Shown here one piece after another: positions 22 to 17,145 of a stretch of DNA of 17,827 nt. Made by a program: the position numbers and the translations under genes. The stretch covers positions 1 to 17,827 of the forward strand of contig JADGPI010000211.1 of NCBI GenBank assembly GCA_017882525.1, given 5' to 3'. Below the pieces are notes generated by a model. It did not search any database. It was given only the letters and a program-made list of their open reading frames with translations, and was not told the DNA's origin. This stretch comes from Thermoleophilia bacterium (GTDB taxonomy: Bacteria > Actinomycetota > Thermoleophilia > RBG-16-64-13). The first letter of the stretch is position 1, and the number at the start of each line of letters is the position of its first letter.

Positions 22-507
22 GTGGGACTGGTGCTCGTCGTGGTCGGACTGGCAGTGGCAGGTGCCCTCATTGCGTTGACGGTGCCGAGGAACGCGCCGT
101 TACATCCTGGCCGGTCAGGGAGTGGAGCGGGACAGGTCTCAGGAGCGGCCCTTGGACAGCGCATCTTTCTCACCGGCACCGACGAAAATGGCCACCTTAT
201 CGCCCGGTCTGGAGGGATCGCGATGATGCAGTCCGGCCTTGGCTGCGCCACGTGTCATGGATCCGACGCCCGTGGTCGCACTATCCAGATGATGATGGGC
301 CAAGTCGTCGCGCTCGATATCCGCTGGAGTGTGTTGACCGCGCCTCCCACCCAGCCGGGTGACGTGGCCTTCGACTCCAGCTCGTTCTTTCGTGCAGTGA
401 CTCAGGGCATCGACCCGACCGGCAAGGCCCTGCAGCCATACATGCCGCACTGGGAGCTTACGCAAGCGGAGAGCGACTCGCTCGTGGCCTTCCTGAAAAC
501 CCTCTAG
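22..507 (+). CDS. Membrane-anchored c-type cytochrome (class I-like, single CXXCH heme motif GCATCHG), with an N-terminal TM helix MGLVLVVVGLAVAGALIALTV. The start is GTG at 22, and the frame stays open back to the window edge, so the true start could lie upstream.
   Basis: Seen in the translation: a hydrophobic N-terminal helix, the CATCH heme-binding motif and a downstream Met-rich segment (QMMMGQ). Codon usage is consistent with neighbouring genes. The stop is TAG at 505-507. Confidence 0.6.
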   Translation: MGLVLVVVGLAVAGALIALTVPRNAPLHPGRSGSGAGQVSGAALGQRIFLTGTDENGHLIARSGGIAMMQSGLGCATCHGSDARGRTIQMMMGQVVALDIRWSVLTAPPTQPGDVAFDSSSFFRAVTQGIDPTGKALQPYMPHWELTQAESDSLVAFLKTL

Positions 508-534: not shown

Positions 535-1470
535 ATGGCTGAGCCAGAAGCGCCCCGACAGCCGGGTCCTGAAGCGCCGCGGCAGCGGGGTGCTGAGCAC
601 CGCTCCGGCGCCTGGATCGTAGCGGAGACCCTAGGCACCAGTACAGACTTTCGGTCGAGACTCGATTTCGACAAGGGGAGTCTCGAATGGCGCCGGCTTT
701 TCTCAGAGCTCTTCGGCACCTTCCTCTTGGTGCTTGTGGCTGTCGGCGGCGGTATGGTCAACGCGCGGTTCGGCGGCCATGCGGTGCCGGTGGCCGCGCA
801 GGTCGTGGCGCCCGGCCTCATGGTGATGAGCGTCATCCTTTTCATGGGCGCGGTGTCCGGCGCCCATCTGAACCCCGGAGTCACCATCGCGTTCGCGCTG
901 CGCCGCGATTTCCGTTGGCAACGAGTGCCCGGCTACATCGCCGCCCAGTTTGCCGGCGCCCTGCTCGCCACACTCGTCCTGCGCGCCGTCCTCGGCGCGC
1001 AAGGGGCCGCGGGCTTGACTCTGCCCGGTCCAGGAGTCACAGCTACTACAGCCATGATCTGGGAGATAGTTCTCTCGGCGGGACTGGTGAGCGTGATCCT
1101 GGGCACGGCCTCAGGCGCCCAGGCGGTGGGCTGGGGGGCCGCGATCGGCGTGGGTGGCTACATCGCCTTGGCCGGCCTATTCGGCGCTCCCGTCAGCGGC
1201 GCCTCGATGAACCTGGCGCGGTCGTTGGGACCGGCTATCGTCCTGGAAGACTTCACGGCGTGGTGGGCTTATCTCGTCGGACCCCTCGTGGGAAGCGTTA
1301 TCGCCGTGGGCATCGCGTACGTCCTTCGCGGCGCCGGCGGAGGCACGATGGGCAGACGGGCAGGCTCCGGCACGCTCGGGGAGTTGTGGCACCCCGGACC
1401 GCTCCGCCCCCCCGTTCCCGCGCAGGATACCGATGGCCGTCCAGCGATGAGGCCCAGCAACGAGGACTGA
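535..1470 (+). CDS. MIP/aquaporin-family channel (aquaporin or glycerol-facilitator-like) with non-canonical NPA boxes: NPG in the first and NLA in the second.
   Basis: Seen in the translation: six hydrophobic helices. The MIP signatures SGAHLNPGVT (NPG at 871-879) and SGASMNLARSLGPA (NLA at 1210-1218) are present. LFSELFGTFLLV is a typical MIP helix-1 start. AGGGA lies 5 nt upstream of the ATG at 535. The ~50-aa N-terminal extension may be partly 5' UTR if a later start is used. Confidence 0.8.
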   Translation: MAEPEAPRQPGPEAPRQRGAEHRSGAWIVAETLGTSTDFRSRLDFDKGSLEWRRLFSELFGTFLLVLVAVGGGMVNARFGGHAVPVAAQVVAPGLMVMSVILFMGAVSGAHLNPGVTIAFALRRDFRWQRVPGYIAAQFAGALLATLVLRAVLGAQGAAGLTLPGPGVTATTAMIWEIVLSAGLVSVILGTASGAQAVGWGAAIGVGGYIALAGLFGAPVSGASMNLARSLGPAIVLEDFTAWWAYLVGPLVGSVIAVGIAYVLRGAGGGTMGRRAGSGTLGELWHPGPLRPPVPAQDTDGRPAMRPSNED

Positions 1471-1492
1471 GCGCCTGCTCGCAAACGACAGC

Positions 1493-1525
1493 GGCCCCGG
1501 TCCGCGCCTGTGGCGGACCGGGGCC
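1493..1525. terminator. GC-rich hairpin between convergent genes, consisting of a perfect 13-bp inverted repeat with a 7-nt loop. It is probably a bidirectional transcription terminator for the MIP gene (+) and the encapsulin gene (-).
   Basis: Seen in the sequence: GGCCCCGGTCCGC (1493-1505), loop GCCTGTG, then GCGGACCGGGGCC (1513-1525). It sits in the 98-nt gap between the two stop codons. There is no strong U-tract, which is common in high-GC genomes. Confidence 0.5.
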
Positions 1526-1568
1526 GGCAGCATGTGCCACAAAGTAGCGCCGCCAAAGCCAGGCGGCC

Positions 1569-2783
1569 CTACTTGATCACGCAGATCGCTCCCGGGGCGT
1601 AGAGTTGCAGCGCAAGACTTTCCGAGATTGTGAGCTGATATTCCAGGTCCGAGGTCGGACCGACATACCCGGCACGCAAGTCCTGCCCGACTACGATCTC
1701 CGCATATTGTTTACCCACCGCTATCAGCACGCCACCGTCGGTCAAGGCGGGGGCTTTGACCACGCCTTCGGTCACAATACTGCCGATGTGCTCCAATTCT
1801 GTCCCGTCGCTTTGCGGGTATCGGCGAAAGAGCAGATTGAACCTGTCAGGCGCAAGGGCAAGCGCATAGGGCCCGTGGAACCCAGCTCTATCGAGGGTGG
1901 TCACTGCTTCGATGATGGTATCCGCGGCCGCACCGATCTTGGTCCAAGGAGCAAGCTTCACCGTCTGCACACCTTCAGTGGTCGTCAGCCCGGCGACGCG
2001 AAGCGTGTCCGAGCCGTACAGAAGCAGCTTGTCTTCTTCCATGGCCAGATAGATAGCCGCCTCGGCGACGACACCCAGGTCCGGCTCGATCCCATTGGCC
2101 TCGAAAGCTGCCAGGTCCCTTCTTGGCAAGGTGAAGTTGGCCGCCAACTGGGCCACCGGGAACGTGGCACTCGCCGAAAATGTGATCCCGGTGTCTCCCG
2201 CGAACGTCTGATCTCTCTTCGGCAGGTGCCGCAACTCTAGGCCAAGCGGCCCCGCGACACTGACTATCCGGCGGACGCTCAATTGGCTGCGGGCCGCACC
2301 GATCACTACCTCATCGATCTTGGCCCAGACTCGGTCGCCAAAGGGAGCGTCACCGCGCTGCAGATACTTGGACATAGCCTTTTTCTCCCCTTCTTTCCGA
2401 TGTTCGTCCGGCTCTTCCGTCTCGACAGGGGACGCCGCCGCTTCCTGGGCCTCGACCCCATCACTGATTCCAGCTTCGCCGGCTCCTTCTGCCGGGCCGG
2501 AGGCCTCGCCTTCCGGGGGTTCCCAGTACGCCTCAGCCGCCTGCTCCATCTCCTCGAGCCGGTCGTAGTAGTCCGGGTATTCCTTTAGGTGCGCGAGAGC
2601 GATCTTCCCAGTAGTCTGAGGATCGTCGGCCGTGACGTTCGTCTGGGAATCGCAGAGTCCATGCTCCAACTCCACGTCCATGCCACGCCGGAATTGATCG
2701 ACCTCGAACGCCGACCAGTCGATGCCCAGGCTCTCGCCGATGGCCTGCGCCTCCTCGGCCGTAAACCTGCCTTCGCCGTCCAT
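1569..2783 (-). CDS. Family-1 encapsulin shell protein (HK97-fold, Linocin M18-like) with an in-frame N-terminal fusion. The fusion comprises a ~85-aa domain of unknown function (signature VELEHG...GKIALAHLKEYPDYYDRLEEME), a ~50-aa acidic G/A/E/P-rich linker, and then the shell domain from MSKYLQRG onward.
   Basis: The C-terminal ~268 aa align by eye to the T. maritima encapsulin (MEFLKRSFAPL...IDNRA...; GPYG~GPLG; ILGQDLSIGYE~VVGQDLRAGYV; the C-terminal hydrophobic ending). The fusion start ATG at 2783 has a GGGAGG RBS 6 nt upstream. The ORF is uninterrupted, and the N-terminal part has protein-like rather than GC-artefact composition. An internal AAGGGGAG sequence sits 9 nt upstream of the conventional shell start, M137, at 2375. 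Confidence 0.85.
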   Translation of the reverse strand: MDGEGRFTAEEAQAIGESLGIDWSAFEVDQFRRGMDVELEHGLCDSQTNVTADDPQTTGKIALAHLKEYPDYYDRLEEMEQAAEAYWEPPEGEASGPAEGAGEAGISDGVEAQEAAASPVETEEPDEHRKEGEKKAMSKYLQRGDAPFGDRVWAKIDEVVIGAARSQLSVRRIVSVAGPLGLELRHLPKRDQTFAGDTGITFSASATFPVAQLAANFTLPRRDLAAFEANGIEPDLGVVAEAAIYLAMEEDKLLLYGSDTLRVAGLTTTEGVQTVKLAPWTKIGAAADTIIEAVTTLDRAGFHGPYALALAPDRFNLLFRRYPQSDGTELEHIGSIVTEGVVKAPALTDGGVLIAVGKQYAEIVVGQDLRAGYVGPTSDLEYQLTISESLALQLYAPGAICVIK

Positions 2784-2918
2784 TCATTACCTCCCAGCAA
2801 TCAGCCAGGGTCGCTCAGCACGGGCAAGAGGTTAGTACCCAACTTGGCCCAGTCACTACCGCTCTCACCCGCATCCCGTCCGCTGCTCGCGGGTAAGCAG
2901 CCGCGCGTGGCGGCGTGG

Positions 2919-3221
2919 CTATTTGTTCTTCTCTTCGAGGCTGGTTATGGATCCCTCGGTGAAGAGGTAATCCTTGAGCTCTTTCGCCTGGACCGCGTCG
3001 TTGCGCCGGATCCATTCGAGAAGCATGGCGGCGTGTTCTTTCTCTTCGTCGCGATTGTGCGCGAGAACCGCTTTCAGCCTGGGATCCTTGCTGGTCTCCA
3101 CCCGCATGTCGTACCAAGCTGCTGCCTGGAGCTCTTCCATGAGTGATGCCACCGCCCGTTTCATGTCCCTCACGGCAGCGCTCAGCTCGTTTTCAGGCTC
3201 CGGGAGGTTCTCCAGTGCCAT
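2919..3221 (-). CDS. Encapsulated ferritin-like protein (EncFtn, family-1 encapsulin cargo with a ferroxidase ExxH motif) carrying a C-terminal targeting-peptide-like tail (TEGSITSLEEKNK).
   Basis: There is strong by-eye identity to R. rubrum EncFtn (MEELEAVDWYDQRVDASTDPELTAILAHNRDEEKEHAAMTLEWLRRNDA... versus MEELQAAAWYDMRVETSKDPRLKAVLAHNRDEEKEHAAMLLEWIRRNDA...). The start is set at the internal ATG (MALENL...) because AAGGAGG lies 5 nt upstream of it. The 13-codon extension in the ORF track (to 3260) is likely spurious. The gene sits immediately upstream of the encapsulin gene on the same strand. Confidence 0.9.
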   Translation of the reverse strand: MALENLPEPENELSAAVRDMKRAVASLMEELQAAAWYDMRVETSKDPRLKAVLAHNRDEEKEHAAMLLEWIRRNDAVQAKELKDYLFTEGSITSLEEKNK

Positions 3222-3340: not shown

Positions 3341-5020
3341 TTACTGCTGGAGCAAGATGAGGGCGTTCCATTCGAGTTGGGCGACCTCTCCCCGGGTGAT
3401 CGGGCCGAGCGGATCGAGATCGTCGAGCGGGAGACCGGCGAGCAACAGGTTGTACTCGGCGCGCCGGGCGTTCTGCCCATGATCCGGGCTCAGACCCGTG
3501 GACCACGTGGAGTGATAGCTGGACGGGGGAGTCTTCAGCAGACCAGGGTGTAGGTCGTCAAGGCCCCGCACCACCATCGTGATGGCCTGGAACCGGGTGA
3601 TGTTGCCGTAGGGAAGGAACAATGTGGCCGTCTTGCCTTGCGTGATGTGGTGAGACGCAGCCACTGCCACGTAGTGATCCGGGTACAGCGGGTCGTTGGG
3701 ATCTACGAGATGACCGGCAGTGGTCTTCGGAACATCGGTGAAAGGAGAGACGTTCTGCTCGGAGACGGCGTAGCCGAGGGTCAGGACGACCGTCTTGGCG
3801 AACTGCTGCCGTGTGACAGGGGCGATGGGATGGAACGTGCCGTCGGTGAAGCCGCCGATGATCTTCCGGGTGGCCAACTGCACGATGGCGGCATGGTAGG
3901 CGCTGGTGGGAGGTACGTCGCTGAACAGCCAGGGCGCGGCCTTGGTCTTGAAGCTCCACGACACCGGTGCTCCCAGGATGCTCGCGCCGCTCGAACCCTT
4001 GATGGTGCCGTCCATGGTCACGATGTAGGTACTCTCGGGGTCGAGATCGGCGACGGCCTTGAGCGTAGCCGTCTTCCCGTTGCAGGTGACGTCGGCCGGG
4101 AGCGGCATGCCTCCCGATTTCTTGATGGTGAAGCTGGCCGAAGTCAGCGTGTCCTTACTGAGATCCCAATCGAAGGTCACGAAGACCCGGACGTCGAGAG
4201 GCACGTCCACGTCGCCGTCCGCGGGCGTGCGCGCGACGATCTGTGGCGGAACGGCCGGGATGGTCGTGAAAGTCCAAACGAATGGTGCTCCGAGCACGAA
4301 CATCCCGTCCAAAGCCCGAACCTCGGCGGTCATCGAGATCTGATACTTGGTGTTCTCCAGAAGCTGGGCCTGCGGAGTGAGGGTGGCGGTCCTCGTAGCG
4401 ACGTTGTAGTTGATGGCAGCAGGAAGAGGGGCGCCGCCTTGCTTCGCAAAGTGGAACGTGGAGGAAGTGAAGGTGGCCGGATCCATGTCGCTGTCGAACA
4501 CCACTGAAATCGCGGGGGCGATCGACTGGTTGACCGCCCCATCCGCCGGAGCCTGGCTGACGATGTGCGGTGGTATGGGTGGGACGGTGTCGAAGTGCCA
4601 GACGATGTCGGATTGCGACACGGACTGTTTGGTCGCCAGATGCACTCCGGTCGAGAGAGTCACGTAGTAGGTGGATCCCGCGGTGAGGCGAGCCGTGGGC
4701 GTAAGAGTGGCAGTCTTGGTGCCCAGATCGTATGTCACAGTCGCCGGCAGGGGAAATCCCGTGGCCTTGAGGACGGAGAAGTTGCCCGCGGTAACCGTGG
4801 CCGGGTCCAGGTCCTGGTCGAAAGTGATGGTAATCGCCTGGTTGACCGGGATGTCCGTTTGTCCATCGGCCGGCGTGCGGCTGATCACGTGCGGGGGCAG
4901 AACTAGGGCGGCGGCACTGGCAACCCCGCCCGATCCCATGACGCCCAAGCAAGCGAGCAGTCCTGCAAGCAGGAGCGGCGCCGCCAACCTGACGCTCCGA
5001 TTCAAGCCACACCTAACCAT
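3341..5020 (-). CDS. Secreted SLH-anchored cell-surface (S-layer-associated) protein. It has a signal peptide, four Ig-like (SbsA_Ig/Big_5-type) repeats that each begin PPH(V/I)(I/V)SxxPADG, and three C-terminal SLH domains.
   Basis: Seen in the translation: repeated PPHVISRTPADG, PPHIVSQAPADG and PPQIVARTPADG modules. The SLH signatures are FSDVPPTSAYHAAIVQLATRKIIGGFTDGTFHPIAPVTRQQFA, FTDVPKTT...ITRFQAITMVVRGL and ...GPITRGEVAQLEWNAL. The start is set at ATG 5020 (MVRCGLNRSVRLAAPLLLAGLLA, a signal peptide) because GGAGAAGGAG lies 5 nt upstream. The ORF-track start at 5089 adds 23 unlikely residues. Confidence 0.8.
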   Translation of the reverse strand: MVRCGLNRSVRLAAPLLLAGLLACLGVMGSGGVASAAALVLPPHVISRTPADGQTDIPVNQAITITFDQDLDPATVTAGNFSVLKATGFPLPATVTYDLGTKTATLTPTARLTAGSTYYVTLSTGVHLATKQSVSQSDIVWHFDTVPPIPPHIVSQAPADGAVNQSIAPAISVVFDSDMDPATFTSSTFHFAKQGGAPLPAAINYNVATRTATLTPQAQLLENTKYQISMTAEVRALDGMFVLGAPFVWTFTTIPAVPPQIVARTPADGDVDVPLDVRVFVTFDWDLSKDTLTSASFTIKKSGGMPLPADVTCNGKTATLKAVADLDPESTYIVTMDGTIKGSSGASILGAPVSWSFKTKAAPWLFSDVPPTSAYHAAIVQLATRKIIGGFTDGTFHPIAPVTRQQFAKTVVLTLGYAVSEQNVSPFTDVPKTTAGHLVDPNDPLYPDHYVAVAASHHITQGKTATLFLPYGNITRFQAITMVVRGLDDLHPGLLKTPPSSYHSTWSTGLSPDHGQNARRAEYNLLLAGLPLDDLDPLGPITRGEVAQLEWNALILLQQ

Positions 5021-5196
5021 GGCGCACTCCTTCTCCCCGTTTTTCCCTCTGAGCGCAAGGCCTGCAACCCGATGCTCGGCCAAGACCAAGTGGCAAGCTA
5101 AAGCCAGGACCTGGCGAACAAGACACTATTACTGGTCGGCGCGCCGGACTCCTGCCTGGCGATCCCGCGAGAGCGGACCGACGGGTGGCGCGTCGT

Positions 5197-10186: not shown

Positions 10187-10692
10187 CCGTGAGCTCCGTC
10201 GCCGAGATCATCAGGGAACGCGGCCTCGCAGAGCGAGGCGAGTTTGCAACCGACCAGTTGATCCCCCTGCTTCAGGAGATACAGGCGCGGGAGGGTCACG
10301 TTTCTGAGAAGGCGATGAGCGCTCTCGCGGCCGCGCTCGACACCTCTGTCGCGCGGGTGTACGGAGTGGCGACCTTCTACAACCAATTCCGCTTCGCGCC
10401 TTTGGGCGAGCATGTCATCGAGATCTGCCGGGGAACGGCGTGCCATGTCAAACAGAGCCTGGCTCTGGCACAGCACCTCAAGCGGCGGCTCAAGCTGCGC
10501 GAGGACGGCAACTCCTCCGACGGTCGTTTCACCGTCCTCAGCGTTGCCTGCTTGGGGGCCTGCTCGATCGCTCCGGTCTTGAAGCTGGACGGCGAGTTCT
10601 ACGGCCATCTCACGCTGGAGAAACTCGACGAACTGCTGGACAACGCCGGAAGCCCGCTCCAGGTCGCTCCACAGGAAGTGAGCTTGTCATGA
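10162..10692 (+). CDS. NuoE/HndA/HydC-like thioredoxin-fold [2Fe-2S] subunit of an NAD(P)H-linked multimeric hydrogenase.
   Basis: Seen in the translation: CRGTAC (Cx4C) and CLGACSIAP (Cx3C), the 2Fe-2S motifs typical of the NuoE family. The start is either ATG 10162, which overlaps the upstream gene by 25 nt, or the in-frame GTG 10189 just after its stop. The stop overlaps the next start (ATGA at 10689-10692). Confidence 0.8.
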   Translation: MATGGRGLAVSSVAEIIRERGLAERGEFATDQLIPLLQEIQAREGHVSEKAMSALAAALDTSVARVYGVATFYNQFRFAPLGEHVIEICRGTACHVKQSLALAQHLKRRLKLREDGNSSDGRFTVLSVACLGACSIAPVLKLDGEFYGHLTLEKLDELLDNAGSPLQVAPQEVSLS

Positions 10693-12704
10693 CCGAGAGC
10701 ACGCTTGTCGTCCCTTGCTGCTCCCGCTGCACCCACACCCTCAGTAACCCTTGCAGGGACCTGGTCTACTGCATCCAGAACGGTCCGGCATGCCACCAGT
10801 CCCCGGAGTGTTCGGAGGAGCGCGGGAAACGGCGCGCGCGCGTGCTCCGCGGCGGCGAAGACATCGTCCTCTACGTGGGTGCCGGCACATGTGGTCTGGC
10901 CAACGGCGCCGCTCGGGTCATCGAGAGATCTCGAGAATACTTTGCGGCGCGCTCCCTACCGGTGTCTGTGGTGGCAGTCGGCTGCGTGGGCTATTGCCAG
11001 CGCGAAGTGTTCGTCGACATGCGAGGCCGGGATGGAGTCCGCCTCTCCTATTGCGACCTGGGCCCGGACACCGTCGCCGAGTTCCTCGAGAGCGTCTTCG
11101 AGCGCGGCGAACTGCGCAACCGGTTCCTTTACGGTCGGTACCCGGACCCGTCGAGTGCTGCCGGGGCAGGCAGCCCCAGCTACGAGGACATCCCACTCAT
11201 CGGGGAAACACCGTTCTTCGAGCGCCAGACCCGTGTGGTACTCCAGAACTGCGGCGTCATAGATCCCGGGTCTGTGGACGCGGCCCTCGCTGCCGGCGGC
11301 TTCTCCTCCGCCGTACGGGCGCTCACTACCATGACCCGCGAAGAGGTGTGCCACACAGTACTTGCCTCCGGACTTCGGGGCCGGGGCGGGGCGGGCTTCC
11401 TCACCGGGCGGAAGTGGAAGATCGCATTGGAAACCCCGCGCGCTCAGAAGTACCTCATCTGCAACGCCGACGAGGGTGACCCCGGAGCGTTCATGGACCG
11501 CGCGGTGCTCGAGAGCGACCCGTTTCGGGTGCTCGAAGGCATGCTGATCGCAGCGTATGCGATCGGCGCGAGCAAAGGTTACGTGTACTGCCGGGCCGAG
11601 TACCCGCTCGCGATCGAACGCCTGCAGGATGCCATAGACCAGTGCCGCCGGGCCGGCTTCCTGGGCACCAACATCTTCGGAAGCCTCGTCGACTTCGACA
11701 TCAGTATCAAACAAGGCGCCGGGGCATTCGTCTGCGGTGAGGAGACGGCCATCCTAGCCAGCATCGAAGGGGGCAGGGGCACGCCCCGTCCTCGGCCGCC
11801 GTACCCGGCTGTGAGCGGCCTCCATGGCAAGCCGACCGTGCTCAACAACGTCGAGACCCTGGCGAACGTCCCGGAGATCCTACGCCGCGGGGCAGAGTGG
11901 TTCCGCGACCTGGGCTTGGGTGACGCGGCCGGCACCAAGGTCTTCGCCCTGAGCGGCCAGGTGCGGAACACCGGCCTGGTAGAGGTGCCGGTGGGCATCC
12001 CGTTGCGCGAGATAGTATGCGCGATCGGCGGCGGCGCTCCTGAAGGGCACCGGCTGAAAGCGGTCCAGATCGGCGGACCGAGCGGCGGCTGCATCCCCGA
12101 GCACCTGCTGGACGTGGCCACCGACTACGGTAAACTGCAGGAACTCGGCGCCATGATGGGCTCCGGGGGCATGGTCGTGATGGACGAGCGGACCTGCATG
12201 GTCGACGTGGCCAAGTACTTCATGGAGTTCATCCGCAACGAGTCGTGCGGCAAATGCACCCCGTGTCGGGAAGGCACCACACGCATGCACGAGATTCTCG
12301 TGGCCCTCACTGAGCGGCCGGTGGGAGAAGAGATCCGCCAGCTCGAGCGCTTCCGCGGTCTCCTCCACCTTGAAGAACTCGCGGATACCATCAAGGACAC
12401 CTCGCTGTGCGGGCTCGGACAGTCCGCCGCCAACCCCGTCCTTTCGACGCTCCGGTTCTTTCGCGACGAGTACGAGGCCCACATCATGGAGAACGTCTGT
12501 CCCGCCGGCGTCTGCCAGGGCCTCCGAACGTACAGCATCGACACCTCGATGTGCACGGGCTGCACACAGTGCCGCAAGAGTTGTCCCAGCGGCGCCATCG
12601 TCGGGGAACGCAAGAAGGTCCACTACATCGTCGTCGACCGTTGCGTCGGCTGCGGGGCCTGCGCCGACGCCTGCCCCAAGCAGGCCGTCGCAGCGGTGGC
12701 TTGA
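10689..12704 (+). CDS. NuoF/HndC/HydB-like flavoprotein subunit (NADH-binding, FMN, [4Fe-4S]). It has an N-terminal thioredoxin-like domain, two C-terminal [4Fe-4S] ferredoxin domains, and an unusual ~45-aa Cys-rich N-terminal extension.
   Basis: Seen in the translation: the NuoF signatures RGGAGFLTG and ESCGKCTPCREG; the C-terminal CTGCTQCRKSCP and CVGCGACADACP; and the N-terminal segment PCCSRCTHTLSNPCRDLVYCIQNGPACHQSPEC. The ATG start at 10689 is coupled (ATGA) to the upstream stop. The upstream part of the 10440 ORF overlaps the previous gene and is not used. Confidence 0.85.
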   Translation: MTESTLVVPCCSRCTHTLSNPCRDLVYCIQNGPACHQSPECSEERGKRRARVLRGGEDIVLYVGAGTCGLANGAARVIERSREYFAARSLPVSVVAVGCVGYCQREVFVDMRGRDGVRLSYCDLGPDTVAEFLESVFERGELRNRFLYGRYPDPSSAAGAGSPSYEDIPLIGETPFFERQTRVVLQNCGVIDPGSVDAALAAGGFSSAVRALTTMTREEVCHTVLASGLRGRGGAGFLTGRKWKIALETPRAQKYLICNADEGDPGAFMDRAVLESDPFRVLEGMLIAAYAIGASKGYVYCRAEYPLAIERLQDAIDQCRRAGFLGTNIFGSLVDFDISIKQGAGAFVCGEETAILASIEGGRGTPRPRPPYPAVSGLHGKPTVLNNVETLANVPEILRRGAEWFRDLGLGDAAGTKVFALSGQVRNTGLVEVPVGIPLREIVCAIGGGAPEGHRLKAVQIGGPSGGCIPEHLLDVATDYGKLQELGAMMGSGGMVVMDERTCMVDVAKYFMEFIRNESCGKCTPCREGTTRMHEILVALTERPVGEEIRQLERFRGLLHLEELADTIKDTSLCGLGQSAANPVLSTLRFFRDEYEAHIMENVCPAGVCQGLRTYSIDTSMCTGCTQCRKSCPSGAIVGERKKVHYIVVDRCVGCGACADACPKQAVAAVA

Positions 12705-12714
12705 AAGGTCTGCC

Positions 12715-14565
12715 ATGAACGTCACGATCAACGACAAGAAGCTGCGATCCGCTCCCGGCGAGACGGTGCTCCAAGTGGCCCGCAGGGCCGGCATCAACAT
12801 CCCACATCTGTGCTCGCTCGACTGGGCCCCGTCACCCTCGGCCTCCTGCCGCCTCTGCGTGGTGGAAGTCGAGGGTATGTCCAGGCTCCAGACCAGCTGC
12901 ACCCTGCCCGCGACGGAAGGCATGGTGGTCCGCACCCACACGCCGCGCGTCCTCAAGGCGCGCCGGGCCATCGTGGAGTTGCTCGTGGCCAACCATCCGC
13001 AGGACTGCCTCACCTGTTCGCGATCCGGCAAATGCGAACTGGCCGACTTGGCCGGTGACCTCGGCGTGCGGCAGCGGCGGTACGCAGGAGTCAAGAAAGA
13101 CCAACCTATCGACATCTCTTCGCCGGCGATCTGGCGAGATCCTAACAAATGCGTGCTCTGCGGACGCTGTGTGACCATGTGCCAGCACGTCCAGGGAGTG
13201 GGAGCGATCGATTTTACCGGGCGAGGCTTCCGCACTCAGGTCGCTCCTGGTTTTTACGCGGGGCTCAACGTCTCGGGGTGCGTATACTGCGGTCAATGCG
13301 TGCGGGTCTGCCCCACCGGGGCGCTCGTCGAACGGAGCCACGTCGACGCGGTCGTGGCAGAGCTTGGCGATCCAAACACAGTGGTGGTGGCGCAGATAGC
13401 GCCGGCAGTGCCGGCCACTCTCCTGAAAGGCCACAGCAAACGGCAAGACGTCCACTCGACCCTCGAGCGGCTGGCGGCAGCGCTCAAACATGTCGGCTTC
13501 ACCGCGATCTTCGATACCTGTTTCGCTGCCGACCTGACCATCATGGAAGAGGCCACCGAGCTTCTCCAGCGGGTCCAAAAGGGCGGCGTCCTCCCGATGT
13601 TCACGAGCTGCTCTCCGGCCTGGGTCCAATTCGTGGAAACGCACCGGCCCGACCTCATCCCCCACCTCTCCACGTGCAAGTCGCCCCAGCAGATGGCGGG
13701 CGCCCTGATCAAAGAGCTTTACCCAGGCTATGCCGGACTCGACGGCAAGCGACTGGTAGTCGTGTCTCTCATGCCCTGCACGGCCAAGAAGTTCGAGGCA
13801 CAGGACCAAGGAGACGTCGATTACGTGCTCACCACCCGCGAACTGGACGCGCTGTGGGATCGTTTCGGCATCGACTTCGCTGCATTCGAAGAACAAACGC
13901 CTCTCGACCCGCCGTTTTCGGAAGCCACCGGCGCCGGTCGCCTTTTCGGCGGCAGTGGCGGGGTGATGGAAGCGGCCGTGCGAACAGCGGCCACCCTGGT
14001 GGGAGGTGACGCCGCGACGATGGAGTTGACGACCGAGGCTCGAGGTCTCGACGGCGTCAAGTGCTTCACCGTTGAGCTCGGCGGGACCACCCTGAAACTG
14101 GGCGTAATCAACGGCCTTGGCCGGCTGCGCCCGGCCCTGGACGAAGTGTTGTCGGATCTTCATTTCGTGGAAGTCATGTCCTGTCCCGGAGGGTGCGTGG
14201 GCGGCGGCGGCCAACCGTATGGCAGCGAGATCGAGGACGTGCGCAAAAGGCAGGGAAATCTCTACCAAGCCGACCTGCGTTCGGACGCCCGCGGCTCCCA
14301 CGAGAACGCCGGTGTGGCTGCCCTCTACCAGGACCTTCTGGGCCGTCCGCTCAGTGAAGTGTCGCATCACCTGCTGCACCGCGAGTACGCGGACCGAAGT
14401 GGCGGTAACGGCGATGATGCCCCCCTTTCGGCAGTGAGCGGCGCCGCGCACCATGCGGCCGACGCGGCCGCTCCGCGCGCGGCCGCAGCCCAGGCGCCCG
14501 TCCGCGAAGCCCCTTCGCTCGCAGCCGTCGGCGCGGCCGCGGCGGCCGCCGGCAGGGAAGACTGA
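12715..14565 (+). CDS. hydA: [FeFe]-hydrogenase large subunit HydA, with M3-type architecture. It has a plant-type [2Fe-2S] domain, a His-ligated [4Fe-4S], two [4Fe-4S] ferredoxin domains and the H-cluster domain, followed by an Ala-rich C-terminal tail. Its L1 motif deviates from canonical, reading TSCSPAW.
   Basis: Seen in the translation: HPQDCLTCSRSGKC (Hx3Cx2Cx5C); CVLCGRCVTMC and CVYCGQCVRVCP; the H-cluster motifs L2 MPCTAKKFE (13771-13797) and L3 EVMSCPGGCVGGGGQP (14171-14218); and L1 FTSCSPAW (13603-13623) instead of TSCCPxW. The start is ATG 12715, 10 nt after the hydB stop. The upstream part of the 12370 ORF is a GC-frame artefact. Confidence 0.85.
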   Translation: MNVTINDKKLRSAPGETVLQVARRAGINIPHLCSLDWAPSPSASCRLCVVEVEGMSRLQTSCTLPATEGMVVRTHTPRVLKARRAIVELLVANHPQDCLTCSRSGKCELADLAGDLGVRQRRYAGVKKDQPIDISSPAIWRDPNKCVLCGRCVTMCQHVQGVGAIDFTGRGFRTQVAPGFYAGLNVSGCVYCGQCVRVCPTGALVERSHVDAVVAELGDPNTVVVAQIAPAVPATLLKGHSKRQDVHSTLERLAAALKHVGFTAIFDTCFAADLTIMEEATELLQRVQKGGVLPMFTSCSPAWVQFVETHRPDLIPHLSTCKSPQQMAGALIKELYPGYAGLDGKRLVVVSLMPCTAKKFEAQDQGDVDYVLTTRELDALWDRFGIDFAAFEEQTPLDPPFSEATGAGRLFGGSGGVMEAAVRTAATLVGGDAATMELTTEARGLDGVKCFTVELGGTTLKLGVINGLGRLRPALDEVLSDLHFVEVMSCPGGCVGGGGQPYGSEIEDVRKRQGNLYQADLRSDARGSHENAGVAALYQDLLGRPLSEVSHHLLHREYADRSGGNGDDAPLSAVSGAAHHAADAAAPRAAAAQAPVREAPSLAAVGAAAAAAGRED

Positions 14566-14572
14566 GGGCCCC

Positions 14573-16696
14573 GTGGACGGCATCATCACAACCATCAAAC
14601 AGAACTGCCGCCGCTGCTTCACGTGCGTGCGCGACTGCCCGGCCAAAGCGATCCGCATCGAGGATGGCCAGGCTTCAGTGGTGACCGAACGCTGCATCGG
14701 GTGCGGCAACTGCACCATCGTCTGCTCGCAGAACGCCAAAGCGTATCTCGACAGCACCGAACGTGCGTTCTGGCTGCTCGACCGGGGCGGCACGGTCGCG
14801 GCTCTCCTGGCCCCGTCGTTTCCCGCAGGCTTCTCCGCGCCGCCCGCGCAAGTCGTCGGAGCTCTTCGGAAAGTGGGCTTCGCGTATGTGGTGGAAGTCG
14901 CATATGGCGCGGAACTCGTGAATCAGGCCTACCGCGACTACCTTGGCGAGCACCCGACAGGCGTCCACATTGCAACCGCGTGCACCGCGGTGGTCGAATA
15001 CGTGCGGAAATACCGCCCCCAACTCACCGAGCGACTCATTCCCATCGTCTCTCCCATGGTGGCGACGGCCCTTGCCGTGAAAGCTCGGTATGGCCAGCAC
15101 GTCCGCTGTGTGTTCATTGGGCCTTGCGTGGCGAAAAAAGGTGAGGCACGGTACCCCGGAGTTGTGGGAGTCGTGGATGAAGTCCTCACGCTGACCGAGG
15201 CGACGACCGTGCTCACCGCGCGCGGCATCGACCCGGCGCAAACCCCCGCCAGCGACTTCGACCCCCCGTTCGCGGGAGAAGCCCGTGTCTTTCCGATCCC
15301 CGGAGGAATGCTGGAAAGCGCCCGATTGGGCGGCGGGATCCTCGACCCGGAGCTGATCGTGGTAAGCGGTCACGACGAGACCATCCAGGCCCTTGACGCG
15401 CTCCCCGAGGGTGAGACCGACAAGGCATTGCTGGTGGAAGCCCTCATGTGCAACGGCTGCTATTGCGGACCAGGGGTGCAGACCCTGGAGCCGGCCGTGA
15501 TGCGCAAGCGCCGGGTGATCGAGTTCGCGGCCGACAGCCTTCGCCGGCAGGGATCCGGAGAGCTGCCTGCCTGCGATGAGACGGATACCTCTCTTTGGCT
15601 CGGTCGTGAGTACACCTCCGACGACCGGCGGTACGACCAGCCGAGTGAAGAGAAGATCCGGGAGATCCTGGCCCGCACCAACAAGTTCTTCCCCGAAGAC
15701 GAGCTCAACTGCGGAGCCTGCGGATACCCCACCTGCCGCGCCAAGGCCACCGCGGTGGTGAGCGGCATGGCGGAGGAAGCCATGTGCCTGCCGTTCATGA
15801 TCGAGCAGGCCGAGCGGGTCTGCCACGAGCTTCGCGTGCCGTGGAAAGACCTGCGTGAAGTGCACCGCCACCTCATCAACACCGAGAAGCTGGCTTCGAT
15901 GGGGCAGATGGCGGCCGGCGTCGCCCACGAGTTGAACAACCCACTCAGCAGCATCCTGCTCTACTCCCACATCCTGGGGCGCAAGCTCGAGGACCGGCCC
16001 GACCTGAGCCACGACCTCAAGCTCGTCGCCGACGAGTCGGAGCGCTGCAAGAAGATCATCGGCAACCTACTCGACTTCGCCCGGCAAACCCGGGTGCACA
16101 TCGAAGCGGTCTCGATCGATGAACTCGTTCGCTCGGCCGTGGACGCGGCCGCATGCAACTTGAGCCCCGGCCCTGGCGGGGCAACCGCGGGCGGCGCCGG
16201 GCGGAACGGCGCGGGGCCGCATGGACCGCGCTCTGGCGGTGGGGTGGAGCTCACACTCGAAGTGACCCCTGGGCTGCAGGCCGACCTGGACCGCGATCAG
16301 ATGACGCAGGTTCTAGTCAACCTCCTCAAGAACGGAGTCGAGGCCATGGAGGGCCGCACCGGCGTCGTGAAACTGTCGGCATATGAGATTCCCGAGCAGC
16401 ATCGGGTCCACTTCGCGGTCAGCGACCAAGGGTGCGGCATCCCAGGCGGCGCTCAGGACAAGGTGTTCCAGCCGTTCTTCACCACCAAGAGCATCGGCAA
16501 GGGAACAGGCCTTGGTCTTCCGATCTCGTACGGCATCGTGAAGATGCACGGCGGCACCATCTGGTTCGAGTCCCAACCCGATCAAGGCACCACTTTCCAC
16601 GTGGAGATCCCCATAACCCATGCGGCCGGTGAGAAGCCCATGACGACAGAGAAGCCCTTCTTACCGAACCAACCTCCCAAGGAGTATGTGATATGA
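14573..16696 (+). CDS. Sensory-type (HydS-like, group C-like) [FeFe]-hydrogenase domain fused to a histidine-kinase transmitter. The order is two [4Fe-4S] ferredoxin domains, a divergent H-cluster domain, a Cx2Cx4Cx16C motif, then HisKA (H-box HELNNPL) and HATPase_c. It is a putative H2-sensing histidine kinase.
   Basis: Seen in the translation: CRRCFTCVRDCP and CIGCGNCTIVC; an H-domain that aligns colinearly with the adjacent HydA (TACTAVV for L1, GPCVAKKGE for L2 and EALMCNGCYCGPG for L3); NCGACGYPTC...x16...C; AAGVAHELNNPLSSI; and the N/G boxes LLKNGVEAM, DQGCGI and GTGLGLPIS. The start is set at GTG 14573, 8 nt after the hydA stop. The ATG at 14453 would add a 40-aa P/R-rich segment overlapping hydA. 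The stop overlaps the next start (ATGA at 16693-16696). Confidence 0.8.
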   Translation: MDGIITTIKQNCRRCFTCVRDCPAKAIRIEDGQASVVTERCIGCGNCTIVCSQNAKAYLDSTERAFWLLDRGGTVAALLAPSFPAGFSAPPAQVVGALRKVGFAYVVEVAYGAELVNQAYRDYLGEHPTGVHIATACTAVVEYVRKYRPQLTERLIPIVSPMVATALAVKARYGQHVRCVFIGPCVAKKGEARYPGVVGVVDEVLTLTEATTVLTARGIDPAQTPASDFDPPFAGEARVFPIPGGMLESARLGGGILDPELIVVSGHDETIQALDALPEGETDKALLVEALMCNGCYCGPGVQTLEPAVMRKRRVIEFAADSLRRQGSGELPACDETDTSLWLGREYTSDDRRYDQPSEEKIREILARTNKFFPEDELNCGACGYPTCRAKATAVVSGMAEEAMCLPFMIEQAERVCHELRVPWKDLREVHRHLINTEKLASMGQMAAGVAHELNNPLSSILLYSHILGRKLEDRPDLSHDLKLVADESERCKKIIGNLLDFARQTRVHIEAVSIDELVRSAVDAAACNLSPGPGGATAGGAGRNGAGPHGPRSGGGVELTLEVTPGLQADLDRDQMTQVLVNLLKNGVEAMEGRTGVVKLSAYEIPEQHRVHFAVSDQGCGIPGGAQDKVFQPFFTTKSIGKGTGLGLPISYGIVKMHGGTIWFESQPDQGTTFHVEIPITHAAGEKPMTTEKPFLPNQPPKEYVI

Positions 16697-17145
16697 GCAC
16701 CGCATGGACCATCCTGTTCGTAGACGACGATCGCGATTTTCTCCAGGCTCAAGCCGCCTATTTCGGGAGCCGCGGCCACGAAGTGCTCACTGCGGCGAGC
16801 AGCAGTGAAGCCATGGAGACTTTGGATGTCACCACCCCGGACATCATCTTCTTGGACCTGATGATGGAGCGCTTCGACAGCGGCTTCCGGCTTGGCTACG
16901 AGATCCGCAAGCGCGAGCGCCTAACCGACACGCCTATCGTCATGCTGAGCGGAGTGGCCGCGGCGACCGGGGAGCGGTTCAGCGACGAGGCCGACGGCCT
17001 TCGCTCGTGGTCGCGGCTCGACCGTTTCATCGACAAACCGGTGACTGGGAAGCAACTGTTGAGCGTTGCGGAGGAGCTGCTAGGCGGCTGCGATACGCAG
17101 GGCTGCGGCTTGAACCAGTGCCGGACGCCCGGCGGCACGGCGTAG
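16693..17145 (+). CDS. Single-domain response regulator (receiver only) that is paralogous to the 9749 receiver and carries a Cys-rich C-terminal tail (CDTQGCGLNQC).
   Basis: Seen in the translation: ILFVDDDRD, IFLDLMM, MLSG and FIDKPV, which align residue by residue with the first receiver. It is translationally coupled to the kinase gene. Confidence 0.8.
   Translation: MSTAWTILFVDDDRDFLQAQAAYFGSRGHEVLTAASSSEAMETLDVTTPDIIFLDLMMERFDSGFRLGYEIRKRERLTDTPIVMLSGVAAATGERFSDEADGLRSWSRLDRFIDKPVTGKQLLSVAEELLGGCDTQGCGLNQCRTPGGTA

What the first reader, a model, noticed from the sequence alone, without database searches (positions are those of the whole stretch)
1569..2783. A family-1 encapsulin shell protein with an uncharacterised domain fused to its lumen-facing N-terminus, encoded alongside a separate EncFtn cargo
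The sequence shows a 404-aa uninterrupted ORF with a strong RBS (GGGAGG) at its 5' end. Residues ~137-404 form an unmistakable HK97-fold encapsulin shell. Residues ~1-85 form a compact, non-repetitive domain (AEEAQAIGESLGIDWSAFEVDQFRRGMDVELEHGLCDSQTNVTADDPQTTGKIALAHLKEYPDYYDRLEEMEQAAEAYW). It is joined to the shell by an acidic, disordered G/A/E/P linker (residues ~86-136).

By established knowledge, family-1 shell N-termini face the lumen. Only a few natural fusions are known, the Pyrococcus or Firmicute Flp-shell fusion being one. A fused domain would therefore be displayed inside the compartment at up to 60 or 180 copies.

The VELEH(G/T)...IAxxHLKExPxYY signature looks to me like a small phage and bacterial family catalogued only as a DUF. 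DUF5661 comes to mind but I have not verified it. It contains an ExxH dyad, which raises the possibility of a metal site. The EncFtn ferroxidase cargo gene is immediately upstream and has its own targeting peptide.

The compartment would therefore hold two lumenal components: soluble EncFtn decamers and a tethered unknown domain. I do not recognise that arrangement.
Basis: partly seen in the sequence, partly recalled or inferred. Interest (0 to 1): 0.75.

Follow-up and report, generated by a model that had tools for sequence, protein, structure and literature searches.

The report
Encapsulin shell fused to DUF5661 domain
A bacterial protein-cage (encapsulin) gene carries a small, extremely conserved domain of unknown function permanently tethered to the inside of the cage; this fusion type is conserved in a whole clade, was not found in the encapsulin literature searched, and the ferritin-like gene next to it lacks the usual address tag for entering the cage.

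Summary
The 404-aa ORF (1569-2783, minus strand) is real. It has three parts: a DUF5661 domain (Pfam E 1.4e-20), a 48-residue acidic disordered tether, and a family-1 encapsulin shell (NCBIfam equivalog, 218 bits).

The fusion is not an artefact. Eighteen protein clusters (50-97% identity) keep it in frame despite linker indels, and their shells form one clade with no unfused shell inside.

Sister unfused shells use rubrerythrin-type Flp cargo with a C-terminal TVGDL tag. No tagged cargo was found near any fusion gene examined, so DUF5661 is most simply the covalently tethered lumenal cargo.

- The upstream EncFtn (100 aa) has no targeting peptide. It belongs to a large class of tag-less EncFtn-like proteins that also occur without encapsulins.
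- A Shine-Dalgarno motif plus ATG at residue 137 is conserved. This suggests a second, untagged shell isoform and mosaic shells.
- In phages, DUF5661 sits in head-morphogenesis modules, fused to prohead proteases, portal and polyvalent proteins.

DUF5661 has no known fold or function. Its invariant E/H/Y residues suggest a metal or catalytic site.

No paper in the searchable library mentions DUF5661, and the encapsulin reviews read list only Flp and cytochrome c N-terminal fusions. I rate it a new variant of a known kind.

The parts
1569..2783 (-). Full 404-aa ORF: DUF5661 domain, acidic tether and family-1 encapsulin shell (long isoform).
   Evidence: ORF list. Pfam and NCBIfam matches. Eighteen homologous fusion clusters of 382-404 aa. 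AlphaFold2 mean pLDDT 88.2.
2790..2795 (-). Shine-Dalgarno GGGAGG, 6 nt upstream of the first ATG.
   Evidence: Read directly from the sequence. The same GGGAGG/GGAGG context occurs in homologous loci.
2523..2759 (-). DUF5661 four-helix domain (residues about 9-87), carrying the invariant residues E38, E40, H41, H65, E68, D71, Y72, Y73 and R75.
   Evidence: Pfam PF18905 E 1.4e-20. AlphaFold2 helices at 9-19, 28-44, 55-68 and 72-87, pLDDT 86.6. Invariant columns in fusions, stand-alone proteins and viral copies.
2376..2522 (-). Acidic, disordered tether (residues 88-136).
   Evidence: pLDDT below 50 for residues 96-128. 14 D+E against 4 K+R. In homologues the linker is 32-49 aa (17 of the 18 measured), variable in sequence, always in frame, and acidic in all but P0138.
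2384..2392 (-). Internal Shine-Dalgarno-like motif AAGGGGAGA. The GGAG core ends about 9 nt before the internal ATG.
   Evidence: Duplex energy with the anti-SD is -8.3 kcal/mol. The same register and a dG of -8.3 or lower are found in 6 of 7 loci across sub-clades A and B. The encoded residue at position -5 varies (G/E/K/R) while the DNA keeps RRG.
2373..2375 (-). Internal ATG (Met137), the ancestral encapsulin start and candidate start of a short, untagged shell isoform.
   Evidence: Met is kept in 17 of 18 fusion proteins and is shifted by two residues in the eighteenth. It aligns with the initiator Met of unfused relatives.
1569..2375 (-). Family-1 encapsulin shell (HK97 fold), residues 137-404 plus the stop codon.
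   Evidence: NF041155 at 218 bits and PF04454 E 2.4e-64. Closest solved shells are D. quercicolus, M. xanthus EncA, Q. thermotolerans and B. methanolicus (E 1e-37 to 1e-33; 29-32% identity; TM 0.8-0.9). T=1 shells score E 1e-16 to 1e-19.
2919..3221 (-). EncFtn-like ferroxidase gene, 100 aa from the ATG with an AGGAGG Shine-Dalgarno motif. It has no C-terminal targeting peptide and is probably co-transcribed with the shell gene.
   Evidence: PF22277 E 6.6e-35. It aligns to R. rubrum EncFtn residues 10-99, and E32, Y39, E62 and H65 are conserved. Start codon and SD. No terminator-like site on the minus strand in the 135-nt gap. No targeting-peptide motif.
1492..1526 (-). GC-rich hairpin (14 pairs) terminator-like site downstream of the shell gene, lying between the convergent shell and MIP genes.
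   Evidence: Consensus scan. This is a pattern match only.

Best explanation
Shown:
- One gene encodes a DUF5661 four-helix domain joined by a 32-49-residue linker (acidic in all but one member) that is predicted disordered in the window protein to a family-1 encapsulin shell of the T=3/T=4-like class.
- The fusion arose once and has been kept through divergence to about 50% identity.

From established family-1 topology:
- The N-terminus lies on the lumenal face, so every long-isoform protomer displays one DUF5661 domain inside the compartment.

Inferred:
1. DUF5661 is the fused cargo of this shell clade. It takes the place of the targeting-peptide-tagged rubrerythrin-type Flp cargo used by the nearest unfused shells.
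2. The conserved Shine-Dalgarno motif plus ATG at residue 137 drives internal initiation. The gene would then give a long tagged isoform and a short untagged isoform that co-assemble into mosaic shells. This would set DUF5661 copy number below 180-240 and leave lumen volume free.
3. The invariant residues E38, E40, H41, H65, E68, D71, Y72 and Y73 form a metal-binding or catalytic site. The domain would then work in metal (probably iron) or redox handling. This fits the co-transcribed EncFtn ferroxidase in this sub-clade, the polyphosphate genes next to the fusion in others, the predominance of anaerobic lineages among the named hosts, and the occasional fusions of DUF5661 to rubrerythrin-like and flavodoxin domains.
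4. The EncFtn has no targeting peptide. It either acts outside the shell or is recruited non-canonically, for example by DUF5661 or the tether. This step is open.
For: Domain architecture.

Conservation and single origin:
- 18 fusion clusters, 50-97% identical, always in frame, with linker indels.
- The fusion shells are monophyletic in a neighbour-joining tree with 22 unfused shells.
- The only apparently unfused close relative (P0132) is a contig-end truncation whose upstream bases still encode the linker in frame.

Cargo replacement:
- Sister unfused shells P0143 and P0141 have upstream rubrerythrin-type Flp genes ending in a linker plus PTVGDL.
- A motif scan finds those two controls but nothing in the seven fusion loci scanned.
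- Sub-clades B and C have no EncFtn within the 12-13 kb loci.

Internal start:
- RRGGAG lies 9 nt before the internal ATG in 6 of 7 loci, at dG of -8.3 or lower. Such windows make up 1-2% of positions in each gene.
- The residue at -5 varies (G/E/K/R) while the purines are kept.
- Met137 is kept in 17 of 18 proteins.

Putative active site:
- The same E/H/Y columns are invariant in fusions, in 41 stand-alone proteins and in 40 viral multidomain proteins.

Context:
- EncFtn is adjacent in sub-clade A.
- PPK1-CYTH-CHAD(-PPX) lies next to the fusion in sub-clade B, and PPK2 and PPX lie near it in L006.
- Rubrerythrin-like+DUF5661 and flavodoxin+DUF5661 proteins exist.

Shell class.
Against: - I could not read the model coordinates, so I have not shown that the invariant residues cluster in space.
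- Stand-alone DUF5661 genes have no conserved neighbours, so context gives no independent functional clue.
- The phage head-module associations and giant-virus copies are hard to reconcile with a specifically iron-related role.
- SD-like purine runs are common in these Glu/Gly-rich genes. Sub-clade C has only a weak motif (-5.1 kcal/mol). Internal initiation is untested.
- The polyphosphate link rests on two lineages. The three sub-clade B loci are syntenic, so they count as one observation.
Confidence: 0.5

Rival explanations
1. DUF5661 is an assembly or scaffolding-type module. It would be the encapsulin counterpart of the HK97 delta-domain or of scaffold and prohead-protease accessory domains. 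It would help nucleate or size a T=3/T=4 shell from the inside rather than act as an enzyme cargo.
For: - In phages DUF5661 lies in the head-morphogenesis module. It is fused to prohead proteases of two families: DUF2213 in Vibrio phage VPs20, and Peptidase_S78 in Faecalibacterium phage Roos and in 3 of 40 IMG/VR proteins. It is also fused to a portal domain.
- Among the top 25 PHROG families hit by 106 immediate neighbours, most are head-module functions: portal (at least 13 hits summed over 8 families), major head, head maturation protease, head closure.
- The fusion sits at the N-terminus of an HK97-fold protein, where delta-domains sit (review).
- The shell belongs to the larger T=3/T=4-like class.
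Against: - The family has 4,837 cluster representatives at 50% identity (E up to 0.001), and more than 589 matches in GTDB species genomes, whose 80 best-scoring loci (79 of them stand-alone) show no capsid genes nearby. Giant viruses without HK97 capsids also carry it.
- Invariant Glu, His and Tyr residues point to chemistry rather than coiled-coil scaffolding.
- Sister shells of the same class have no such domain.
- The tether is long and disordered, which is unlike an ordered delta-domain.
Confidence: 0.15
2. DUF5661 is a tethered adaptor that captures the tag-less EncFtn. This would be a non-canonical cargo-loading route in which the receptor is fused to the shell instead of a peptide being fused to the cargo.
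For: - The EncFtn lacks any targeting peptide, yet it stays immediately upstream of the fusion throughout sub-clade A (window, L006, L010-L012), with no terminator-like site in the window's gap.
Against: - Sub-clades B and C keep the fusion without any EncFtn nearby.
- Tag-less EncFtn-like proteins of 95-101 aa are very common and occur with no encapsulin nearby.
- Stand-alone DUF5661 proteins, about 70% identical to this domain, occur in genomes and contexts without EncFtn.
Confidence: 0.15
3. One reading: the compartment holds two lumenal components, namely EncFtn decamers loaded through their own C-terminal targeting peptide plus the tethered DUF5661.
For: The EncFtn gene is adjacent and probably co-transcribed. 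The ferroxidase-centre residues are conserved.
Against: - The EncFtn ends 3 residues after the position matching residue 99 of the 140-aa R. rubrum protein.
- It has no GxLGIxxL or TVGxL motif.
- In L006 the only hydrophobic tail position is Arg.
- The tail type is shared with homologues that are not next to encapsulins.
Confidence: 0.07
4. The long ORF is an artefact or a neutral read-through of two adjacent genes (a DUF5661 gene plus an encapsulin gene). Only the separate products would matter.
For: - The internal SD plus ATG would allow the shell to be made alone.
- Stand-alone DUF5661 proteins are the norm.
- One GTDB representative (L012) shows frameshifts in this gene.
Against: - Eighteen independent clusters from many assemblies keep one frame through a linker that varies in length and sequence and has no stop codon.
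- The fusion clade is monophyletic and old.
- No locus shows a DUF5661 gene followed by a separate encapsulin gene.
- The L012 frameshifts also hit the shell body, so I take them to be assembly indel errors.
Confidence: 0.03

Closest known systems
Archaeal Flp-fusion encapsulins (Pyrococcus furiosus PfV, PDB 2E0Z; Sulfolobus)
   Same: Family-1 shell with a small helical domain fused to the lumenal N-terminus through a flexible tether. No targeting-peptide cargo is needed. T=3-class shell.
   Different: There the fused domain is an EncFtn/Flp ferroxidase. Here it is DUF5661, which has no detectable similarity to EncFtn (hhalign probability 0.14%). Here EncFtn is a separate, tag-less gene. The host is bacterial, probably Thermoleophilia. 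2E0Z is only a distant shell match (E 5e-11).
Anammox cEnc (dihaem cytochrome c fused to a family-1 encapsulin)
   Same: N-terminal fusion domain joined by a linker of about 35 residues rich in Pro, Ala and Gly. The function is unknown. A neighbouring gene lacks a targeting peptide but is suspected to be cargo.
   Different: The window ORF has no CxxCH haem motifs (read from the translation), and I did not run a signal-peptide prediction. The linker is acidic. The fused domain is a different family.
Classical two-gene EncFtn-encapsulin systems (Rhodospirillum rubrum, Haliangium ochraceum)
   Same: An EncFtn gene lies directly upstream of a family-1 shell gene, and the ferroxidase residues are conserved.
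   Different: Those EncFtn proteins are 131-140 aa with a C-terminal localisation sequence (GxLGIxxL) and load into T=1 shells. Here the EncFtn is 100 aa without that sequence, and the shell is of the T=3/T=4-like class and carries DUF5661.
Stand-alone DUF5661 (PF18905) proteins of about 90 aa
   Same: The N-domain is 70-79% identical to them and keeps every invariant residue.
   Different: They are single-domain proteins with no conserved neighbours and no encapsulin nearby. Only about 18 of thousands of clusters are fused to a shell.
Phage head-module proteins carrying DUF5661 (prohead protease fusions, portal fusions, polyvalent proteins)
   Same: DUF5661 is attached to a protein that ends up inside an HK97-fold shell. 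For polyvalent proteins this follows from PMC5512222.
   Different: The phage copies are only 35-64% identical to the window's N-domain. They are attached to protease, portal or effector domains rather than to the capsid protein itself. They would be ejected or processed rather than permanently resident.

Membership tests
Family 1 encapsulin shell protein | Sequence membership in Linocin_M18 / encap_f1 (HK97-fold shell protein). | tested here: met
   PF04454 E 2.4e-64. NF041155 equivalog at 218 bits against a cut-off of 100.
Family 1 encapsulin shell protein | HK97-type fold with A-domain, P-domain, E-loop and N-helix. | tested here: met
   AlphaFold2 pLDDT is above 93 over most of the shell (86-90 for residues 181-210). 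Foldseek TM 0.8-0.9 to M. xanthus EncA, Q. thermotolerans and T. maritima shells.
Family 1 encapsulin shell protein | A dedicated cargo with a C-terminal targeting peptide encoded next to the shell gene. | tested here: not met
   No TVGxL / GxLGIxxL-type tail in any ORF of the fusion loci scanned, whereas the two control Flp cargos were found. The EncFtn tail is not a targeting peptide. Known fusion encapsulins share this exception.
Family 1 encapsulin shell protein | Self-assembly into an icosahedral shell (T=1, 3 or 4). | not testable with these tools
   There is only a class inference: the closest solved shells are T=3/T=4 types.
Fusion encapsulins (N-terminal cargo-domain fusions) | A folded domain fused by a flexible linker to the lumenal N-terminus and conserved across homologues. 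| tested here: met
Fusion encapsulins (N-terminal cargo-domain fusions) | The fused domain is one of the described types (Flp/EncFtn or dihaem cytochrome c). | tested here: not met
   The domain is DUF5661. hhalign against EncFtn gives probability 0.14%. The domain has no CxxCH motif. The reviews list only the Flp and cytochrome c types.
DUF5661 (PF18905) | Profile match above the gathering threshold, with the family's invariant motifs (DVELEHG, IALAHLxE, DYY) present. | tested here: met
   73.8 bits against a cut-off of 27. Invariant columns.
EncFtn (encapsulated ferritin) for the upstream gene | EncFtn-like fold and sequence with the ferroxidase-centre residues (R. rubrum E32, Y39, E62, H65). 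| tested here: met
   PF22277 E 6.6e-35. The residues align. The residue numbering comes from my knowledge of the R. rubrum work. TIGR04535 scores 117 bits, just under its cut-off of 125.
EncFtn (encapsulated ferritin) for the upstream gene | A C-terminal localisation sequence that docks on the shell interior. | tested here: not met

The most novel reading that the evidence does not exclude
DUF5661 is a general 'passenger' module of HK97-fold shells. Phages carry it into capsids by fusing it to packaged proteins (prohead protease, portal, polyvalent effectors). This encapsulin clade carries it by fusing it to the shell protein itself. That would be a direct, still-visible continuity between phage capsid-internal proteins and encapsulin cargo. 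In the Thermoleophilia-type sub-clade the tethered domain additionally acts as the receptor that loads a tag-less EncFtn, which would be a new cargo-loading mechanism that needs no targeting peptide.
Probability: 0.15. Interest if true: 0.85.

Novelty: new variant of a known kind. Interest (0 to 1): 0.7.

Why it matters
- **A third fusion type.** Only two N-terminal fusion types are described for family-1 encapsulins, and the biology of both is still unresolved. A third type that is monophyletic and conserved shows that covalent cargo tethering evolved repeatedly. It also gives a tractable bacterial two-gene system.
- **A handle on DUF5661.** This is one of the more striking orphan domains. 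It is about 90 aa and 60-76% identical in the best-scoring loci from Bacteria, Archaea, CPR and DPANN lineages. It is also present in phages and giant viruses. No paper in the searched library mentions it. Its placement inside a closed shell next to a ferroxidase gives a concrete setting for finding its ligand or activity.
- **Stoichiometry from one gene.** The conserved internal start suggests a built-in way to set cargo stoichiometry from a single gene, which is useful for encapsulin engineering.
- **Annotation practice.** The tag-less EncFtn next to a shell gene challenges the habit of calling every adjacent EncFtn 'cargo'.

Tried and rejected
- **PDB sequence search with the N-domain:** no hit even at E of 10 or below.
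- **Foldseek against BFVD:** only other uncharacterised DUF5661-like viral proteins.
- **afdb50 library:** unavailable.
- **PHROGs with the N-domain:** no family.
- **hhalign of DUF5661 against EncFtn:** probability 0.14%, so it is not a diverged EncFtn.
- **Conserved neighbours of stand-alone DUF5661 in 80 GTDB loci:** none. The commonest neighbour family was a generic ABC ATPase, in 10 loci.
- **An unfused operon with a DUF5661 gene upstream of a separate encapsulin gene:** not seen.
- **P0132, which looked like an unfused 82%-identical shell:** rejected as a contig-end truncation.
- **L012, which looked like a broken fusion:** its frameshifts also hit the shell body, so I treated them as assembly errors.
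- **N-domain phylogeny, to ask whether the domain was acquired once:** unresolved, because the alignment is too short and too conserved. The shell tree was used instead.
- **Literature:** 'DUF5661' is in 0 papers. A search for other fusion encapsulins found nothing beyond the known types.
Full report
**1. The observation**

The minus strand of the window carries an uninterrupted 404-aa ORF at 1569-2783. GGGAGG lies 6 nt upstream of its ATG.

- Pfam places DUF5661 (PF18905) on residues 12-81 (E 1.4e-20; 73.8 bits against a cut-off of 27).
- Pfam places Linocin_M18 on residues 139-391 (E 2.4e-64).
- NCBIfam's family-1 encapsulin equivalog scores 218 bits against a cut-off of 100.

AlphaFold2 of the whole protein has mean pLDDT 88.2. 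It shows three regions:
- a confident four-helix N-domain;
- a stretch with pLDDT below 50 at residues 96-128;
- a confident HK97-type shell, which Foldseek superposes on solved encapsulins at TM 0.8-0.9.

**2. The fusion is real, old and monophyletic**

A search of 5.8 billion proteins found about 18 clusters with the architecture PF18905+PF04454. They are 382-404 aa and 50-97% identical to the query, and they come from many independent assemblies.

In their alignment the N-domain and the shell are conserved. The linker varies in length (32-49 aa where it could be measured) and in sequence, yet it is always in frame.

In a neighbour-joining tree of shell domains, the 18 fusion shells form one clade with none of 22 unfused shells inside it. 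This points to a single fusion event that has been retained since.

The one apparently unfused close relative (P0132) is cut by a contig end, and its 38 upstream bases still encode the linker in frame. One GTDB genome (L012) has frameshifts scattered through the gene, including the shell body. I take these to be assembly indel errors.

**3. What the shell clade's relatives do**

The nearest unfused shells (P0143 and P0141, 52-54% identical) sit downstream of rubrerythrin-family Flp genes. Those Flp proteins end in a flexible linker plus PTVGDL, a canonical targeting peptide.

A motif scan recovers those two controls. It finds nothing comparable in the window or in six other fusion loci. The simplest reading is that, in this clade, covalent tethering of DUF5661 replaced peptide-mediated loading of Flp.

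**4. The EncFtn gene**

The upstream gene is an EncFtn-like protein (PF22277, E 6.6e-35). Its likely start is the ATG at 3221, which is preceded by AGGAGG and gives a 100-aa protein. This matches the 100-aa gene calls in related loci.

It aligns to residues 10-99 of the 140-aa R. rubrum EncFtn, with the ferroxidase residues conserved. It stops 3 residues after that alignment ends.

The localisation motif defined structurally in H. ochraceum is GxLGIxxL, within 117-GSLGIGSLR-125. The window protein ends in TEGSITSLEEKNK, and L006 ends in TEGSITRREERNK.

The same short tail is typical of thousands of EncFtn-like proteins of 95-101 aa. Two of these that I checked have no encapsulin within 5 kb: P0416, 74% identical, and the Zobellella protein P0489.

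The EncFtn does remain adjacent to the fusion throughout sub-clade A (window, L006, L010-L012; P0130 is suggested only by a shared contig length). The window has no terminator-like site on the coding strand in the 135-nt gap. A functional link is therefore plausible, but encapsulation is unproven.

Sub-clades B and C have no EncFtn in the 12-13 kb I could see:
- Sub-clade B has PPK1-CYTH-CHAD(-PPX) upstream.
- Sub-clade C has a Cys-rich DUF6485 gene upstream.

**5. A probable second isoform**

Met137 aligns with the initiator Met of unfused encapsulins. It is kept in 17 of 18 fusions and is shifted by two residues in the eighteenth.

Nine nucleotides upstream of this ATG, six of seven loci have RRGGAG. 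These six loci span sub-clades A and B. The anti-SD duplex energy is -8.3 to -9.1 kcal/mol. Windows that strong make up 1-2% of positions in each gene and 2-7% of positions in the linker.

The residue encoded at position -5 changes between Gly, Glu, Lys and Arg while the DNA keeps the purines. That is the pattern expected for selection on the RNA rather than on the protein. Sub-clade C has only a weak motif.

I infer, without proof, that the gene yields both a long form and a short shell-only form, and that the two co-assemble.

**6. What DUF5661 is**

The N-domain's best homologues are stand-alone proteins of about 90 aa at 70-79% identity. The family has 4,837 representatives at 50% clustering. 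It has more than 589 matches in GTDB species genomes. The best-scoring loci are 55-76% identical to the window's domain and include:
- CPR and DPANN lineages;
- Asgard and Bathyarchaeota;
- Methanosarcina, Acetobacterium, Pelotomaculum and Syntrophomonadaceae.

These genes have no conserved neighbours.

The columns G34, E38, E40, I61, H65, E68, Y72 and Y73 are invariant even in divergent viral copies, and H41 is nearly so. D71 and R75 are invariant in the fusion and stand-alone alignments only.

The predicted fold is four short helices (pLDDT 86.6). Nothing informative matches it:
- no PDB sequence hit;
- only uncharacterised giant-virus and phage proteins in BFVD;
- no similarity to EncFtn.

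Other partners among cluster representatives are rubrerythrin-like, flavodoxin and DUF6064 domains, and tandem copies of DUF5661 itself.

**7. An unexpected phage connection**

The two annotated phage matches I inspected put DUF5661 between the terminase/portal region and the major capsid gene:
- In Vibrio phage VPs20 it is fused to a DUF2213 domain. From memory, and not checked here, this family is regarded as an XkdF-like prohead protease.
- In Faecalibacterium phage Roos it is fused to a Peptidase_S78 prohead protease.

In IMG/VR, 85 loci encode the domain. Among 40 longer host proteins, Pfam finds S78 protease (3), portal (1), and LPD1, InPase, NUDIX, methyltransferase and mCpol domains. 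That composition is typical of the virion-packaged 'polyvalent proteins' described in PMC5512222.

Among the top 25 PHROG families hit by 106 immediate neighbours, head-module functions predominate. Portal families sum to at least 13 hits. The others are major head, minor head, head closure, maturation protease and adaptor.

So in phages too, DUF5661 travels on proteins that end up inside HK97-fold shells. This may be meaningful (a passenger or scaffold module), or it may only reflect a promiscuous small domain.

**8. Mechanism, with the status of each step**

Shown:
- the architecture;
- conservation and single origin of the fusion;
- absence of tagged cargo near the fusion genes examined;
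- a tag-less EncFtn.

From established family-1 topology:
- the lumenal location of the N-terminus.

Inferred:
- DUF5661 is the tethered cargo.
- Internal initiation yields mosaic shells.
- The invariant E/H/Y residues form a metal or catalytic site used in iron or redox handling.

Open:
- whether and how EncFtn enters the shell.

The shell is most similar to T=3/T=4 shells. These are D. quercicolus, M. xanthus, Q. thermotolerans and B. methanolicus, at E 1e-37 to 1e-33 and 29-32% identity. T=1 shells score E 1e-16 to 1e-19 and 23-25% identity. Up to 180-240 tethered domains are therefore more likely than 60.

**9. Comparison with what is known, and novelty**

The closest known systems are the archaeal Flp-fusion encapsulins and the anammox cytochrome c fusion, cEnc. 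This is the same kind of arrangement with a different fused domain of unknown function.

No paper in the searchable library contains 'DUF5661'. Neither the 2021 census nor the 2024 structural review lists such a fusion. The library is incomplete, so prior description elsewhere cannot be excluded.

I class it as a new variant of a known kind.

**10. Source of the window**

The EncFtn is 100% identical to a protein whose longest public contig is 17,827 bases, which is the length of this window. A 99% identical protein is labelled Thermoleophilia bacterium.

The window has 64% G+C. It encodes [FeFe]-hydrogenase genes, consistent with an anaerobic actinobacterial lineage.

Noticed in passing
L092 4338-5606 (Vibrio phage vB_VpaM_VPs20, OP056089.1); L093 4423-5415 (Faecalibacterium phage Roos, PP479939.1); viral loci L094-L173: In phages DUF5661 sits in the head-morphogenesis module. 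It is fused to prohead proteases of two families (DUF2213 and Peptidase_S78), to a portal domain, and to polyvalent-protein domains (LPD1, InPase, NUDIX, mCpol, methyltransferase). Most of the commonest PHROG families among its immediate neighbours are portal, capsid or protease families.
   Followed up: partly
L003 1-5780, L008 1186-5759, L009 1-5718 (sub-clade B); L006 4222-5058 and 8411-10048 (sub-clade A): Polyphosphate genes lie next to the fusion encapsulin in two sub-clades: PPK1, CYTH, CHAD and Ppx-GppA in sub-clade B, and PPK2 in L006. This could hint at a metal-phosphate storage link, or it could be coincidental synteny.
   Followed up: partly
window 2919-3221 (-); L177/L178 5001-5303; L179 5001-5288: EncFtn-like proteins of 95-101 aa without any localisation sequence are very numerous. 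In the two cases checked they are not next to an encapsulin. Even so, NCBI names some of them 'encapsulin-associated ferritin-like protein'.
   Followed up: partly
L004 5695-5898; L005 72-275: A 67-aa Cys-rich DUF6485 protein ([32 protein letters not shown]...) is encoded directly upstream of the fusion encapsulin in sub-clade C. It could be a metal-binding partner or cargo.
   Followed up: no
window 535-1470 (+): A MIP-family channel gene lies convergent to the shell gene. It keeps this position in sub-clade A relatives (L006, L010).
   Followed up: no
window 14453-16696 (+) and 16693-17145 (+): A protein combines an [FeFe]-hydrogenase large-subunit-like domain and Fe-S motifs with HisKA and HATPase_c domains. 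It looks like a sensory hydrogenase-histidine kinase. An overlapping response-regulator gene follows it.
   Followed up: no
window 10440-14565 (+): A NuoF-like flavoprotein (Complex1_51K, NADH_4Fe-4S) lies next to an [FeFe]-hydrogenase catalytic subunit (Fe_hyd_lg_C plus the small-subunit domain). This looks like a multimeric, possibly electron-bifurcating hydrogenase, and it indicates an anaerobic host.
   Followed up: no
window 3341-5089 (-): A 582-aa protein has three Big_5 Ig-like domains, weak CopC-like matches and an SLH domain. It looks like a cell-surface (S-layer-anchored) protein and lies directly upstream of the EncFtn gene.
   Followed up: no
window 22-507 (+): A 161-aa ORF contains a CxxCH motif (GCATCHGS). 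It could be a small c-type cytochrome. I did not run it against any library.
   Followed up: no
L012 5700-7300 (CAVSQF010000017.1, labelled 'uncultured delta proteobacterium'): The GTDB representative carrying the sub-clade A operon has several frameshifts in the fusion gene. I take these to be assembly indel errors. Its taxonomic label also conflicts with the Thermoleophilia label of near-identical EncFtn proteins.
   Followed up: partly
BFVD hits (Klosneuvirus A0A1V0SKV2, Indivirus A0A1V0SE21, Medusavirus A0A7S8BDG5, Marseillevirus D2XA37): Proteins of about 100 aa in giant viruses of eukaryotes match the DUF5661 model at 28-47% identity. The domain therefore spans cells, phages and giant viruses of eukaryotes.
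   Followed up: no
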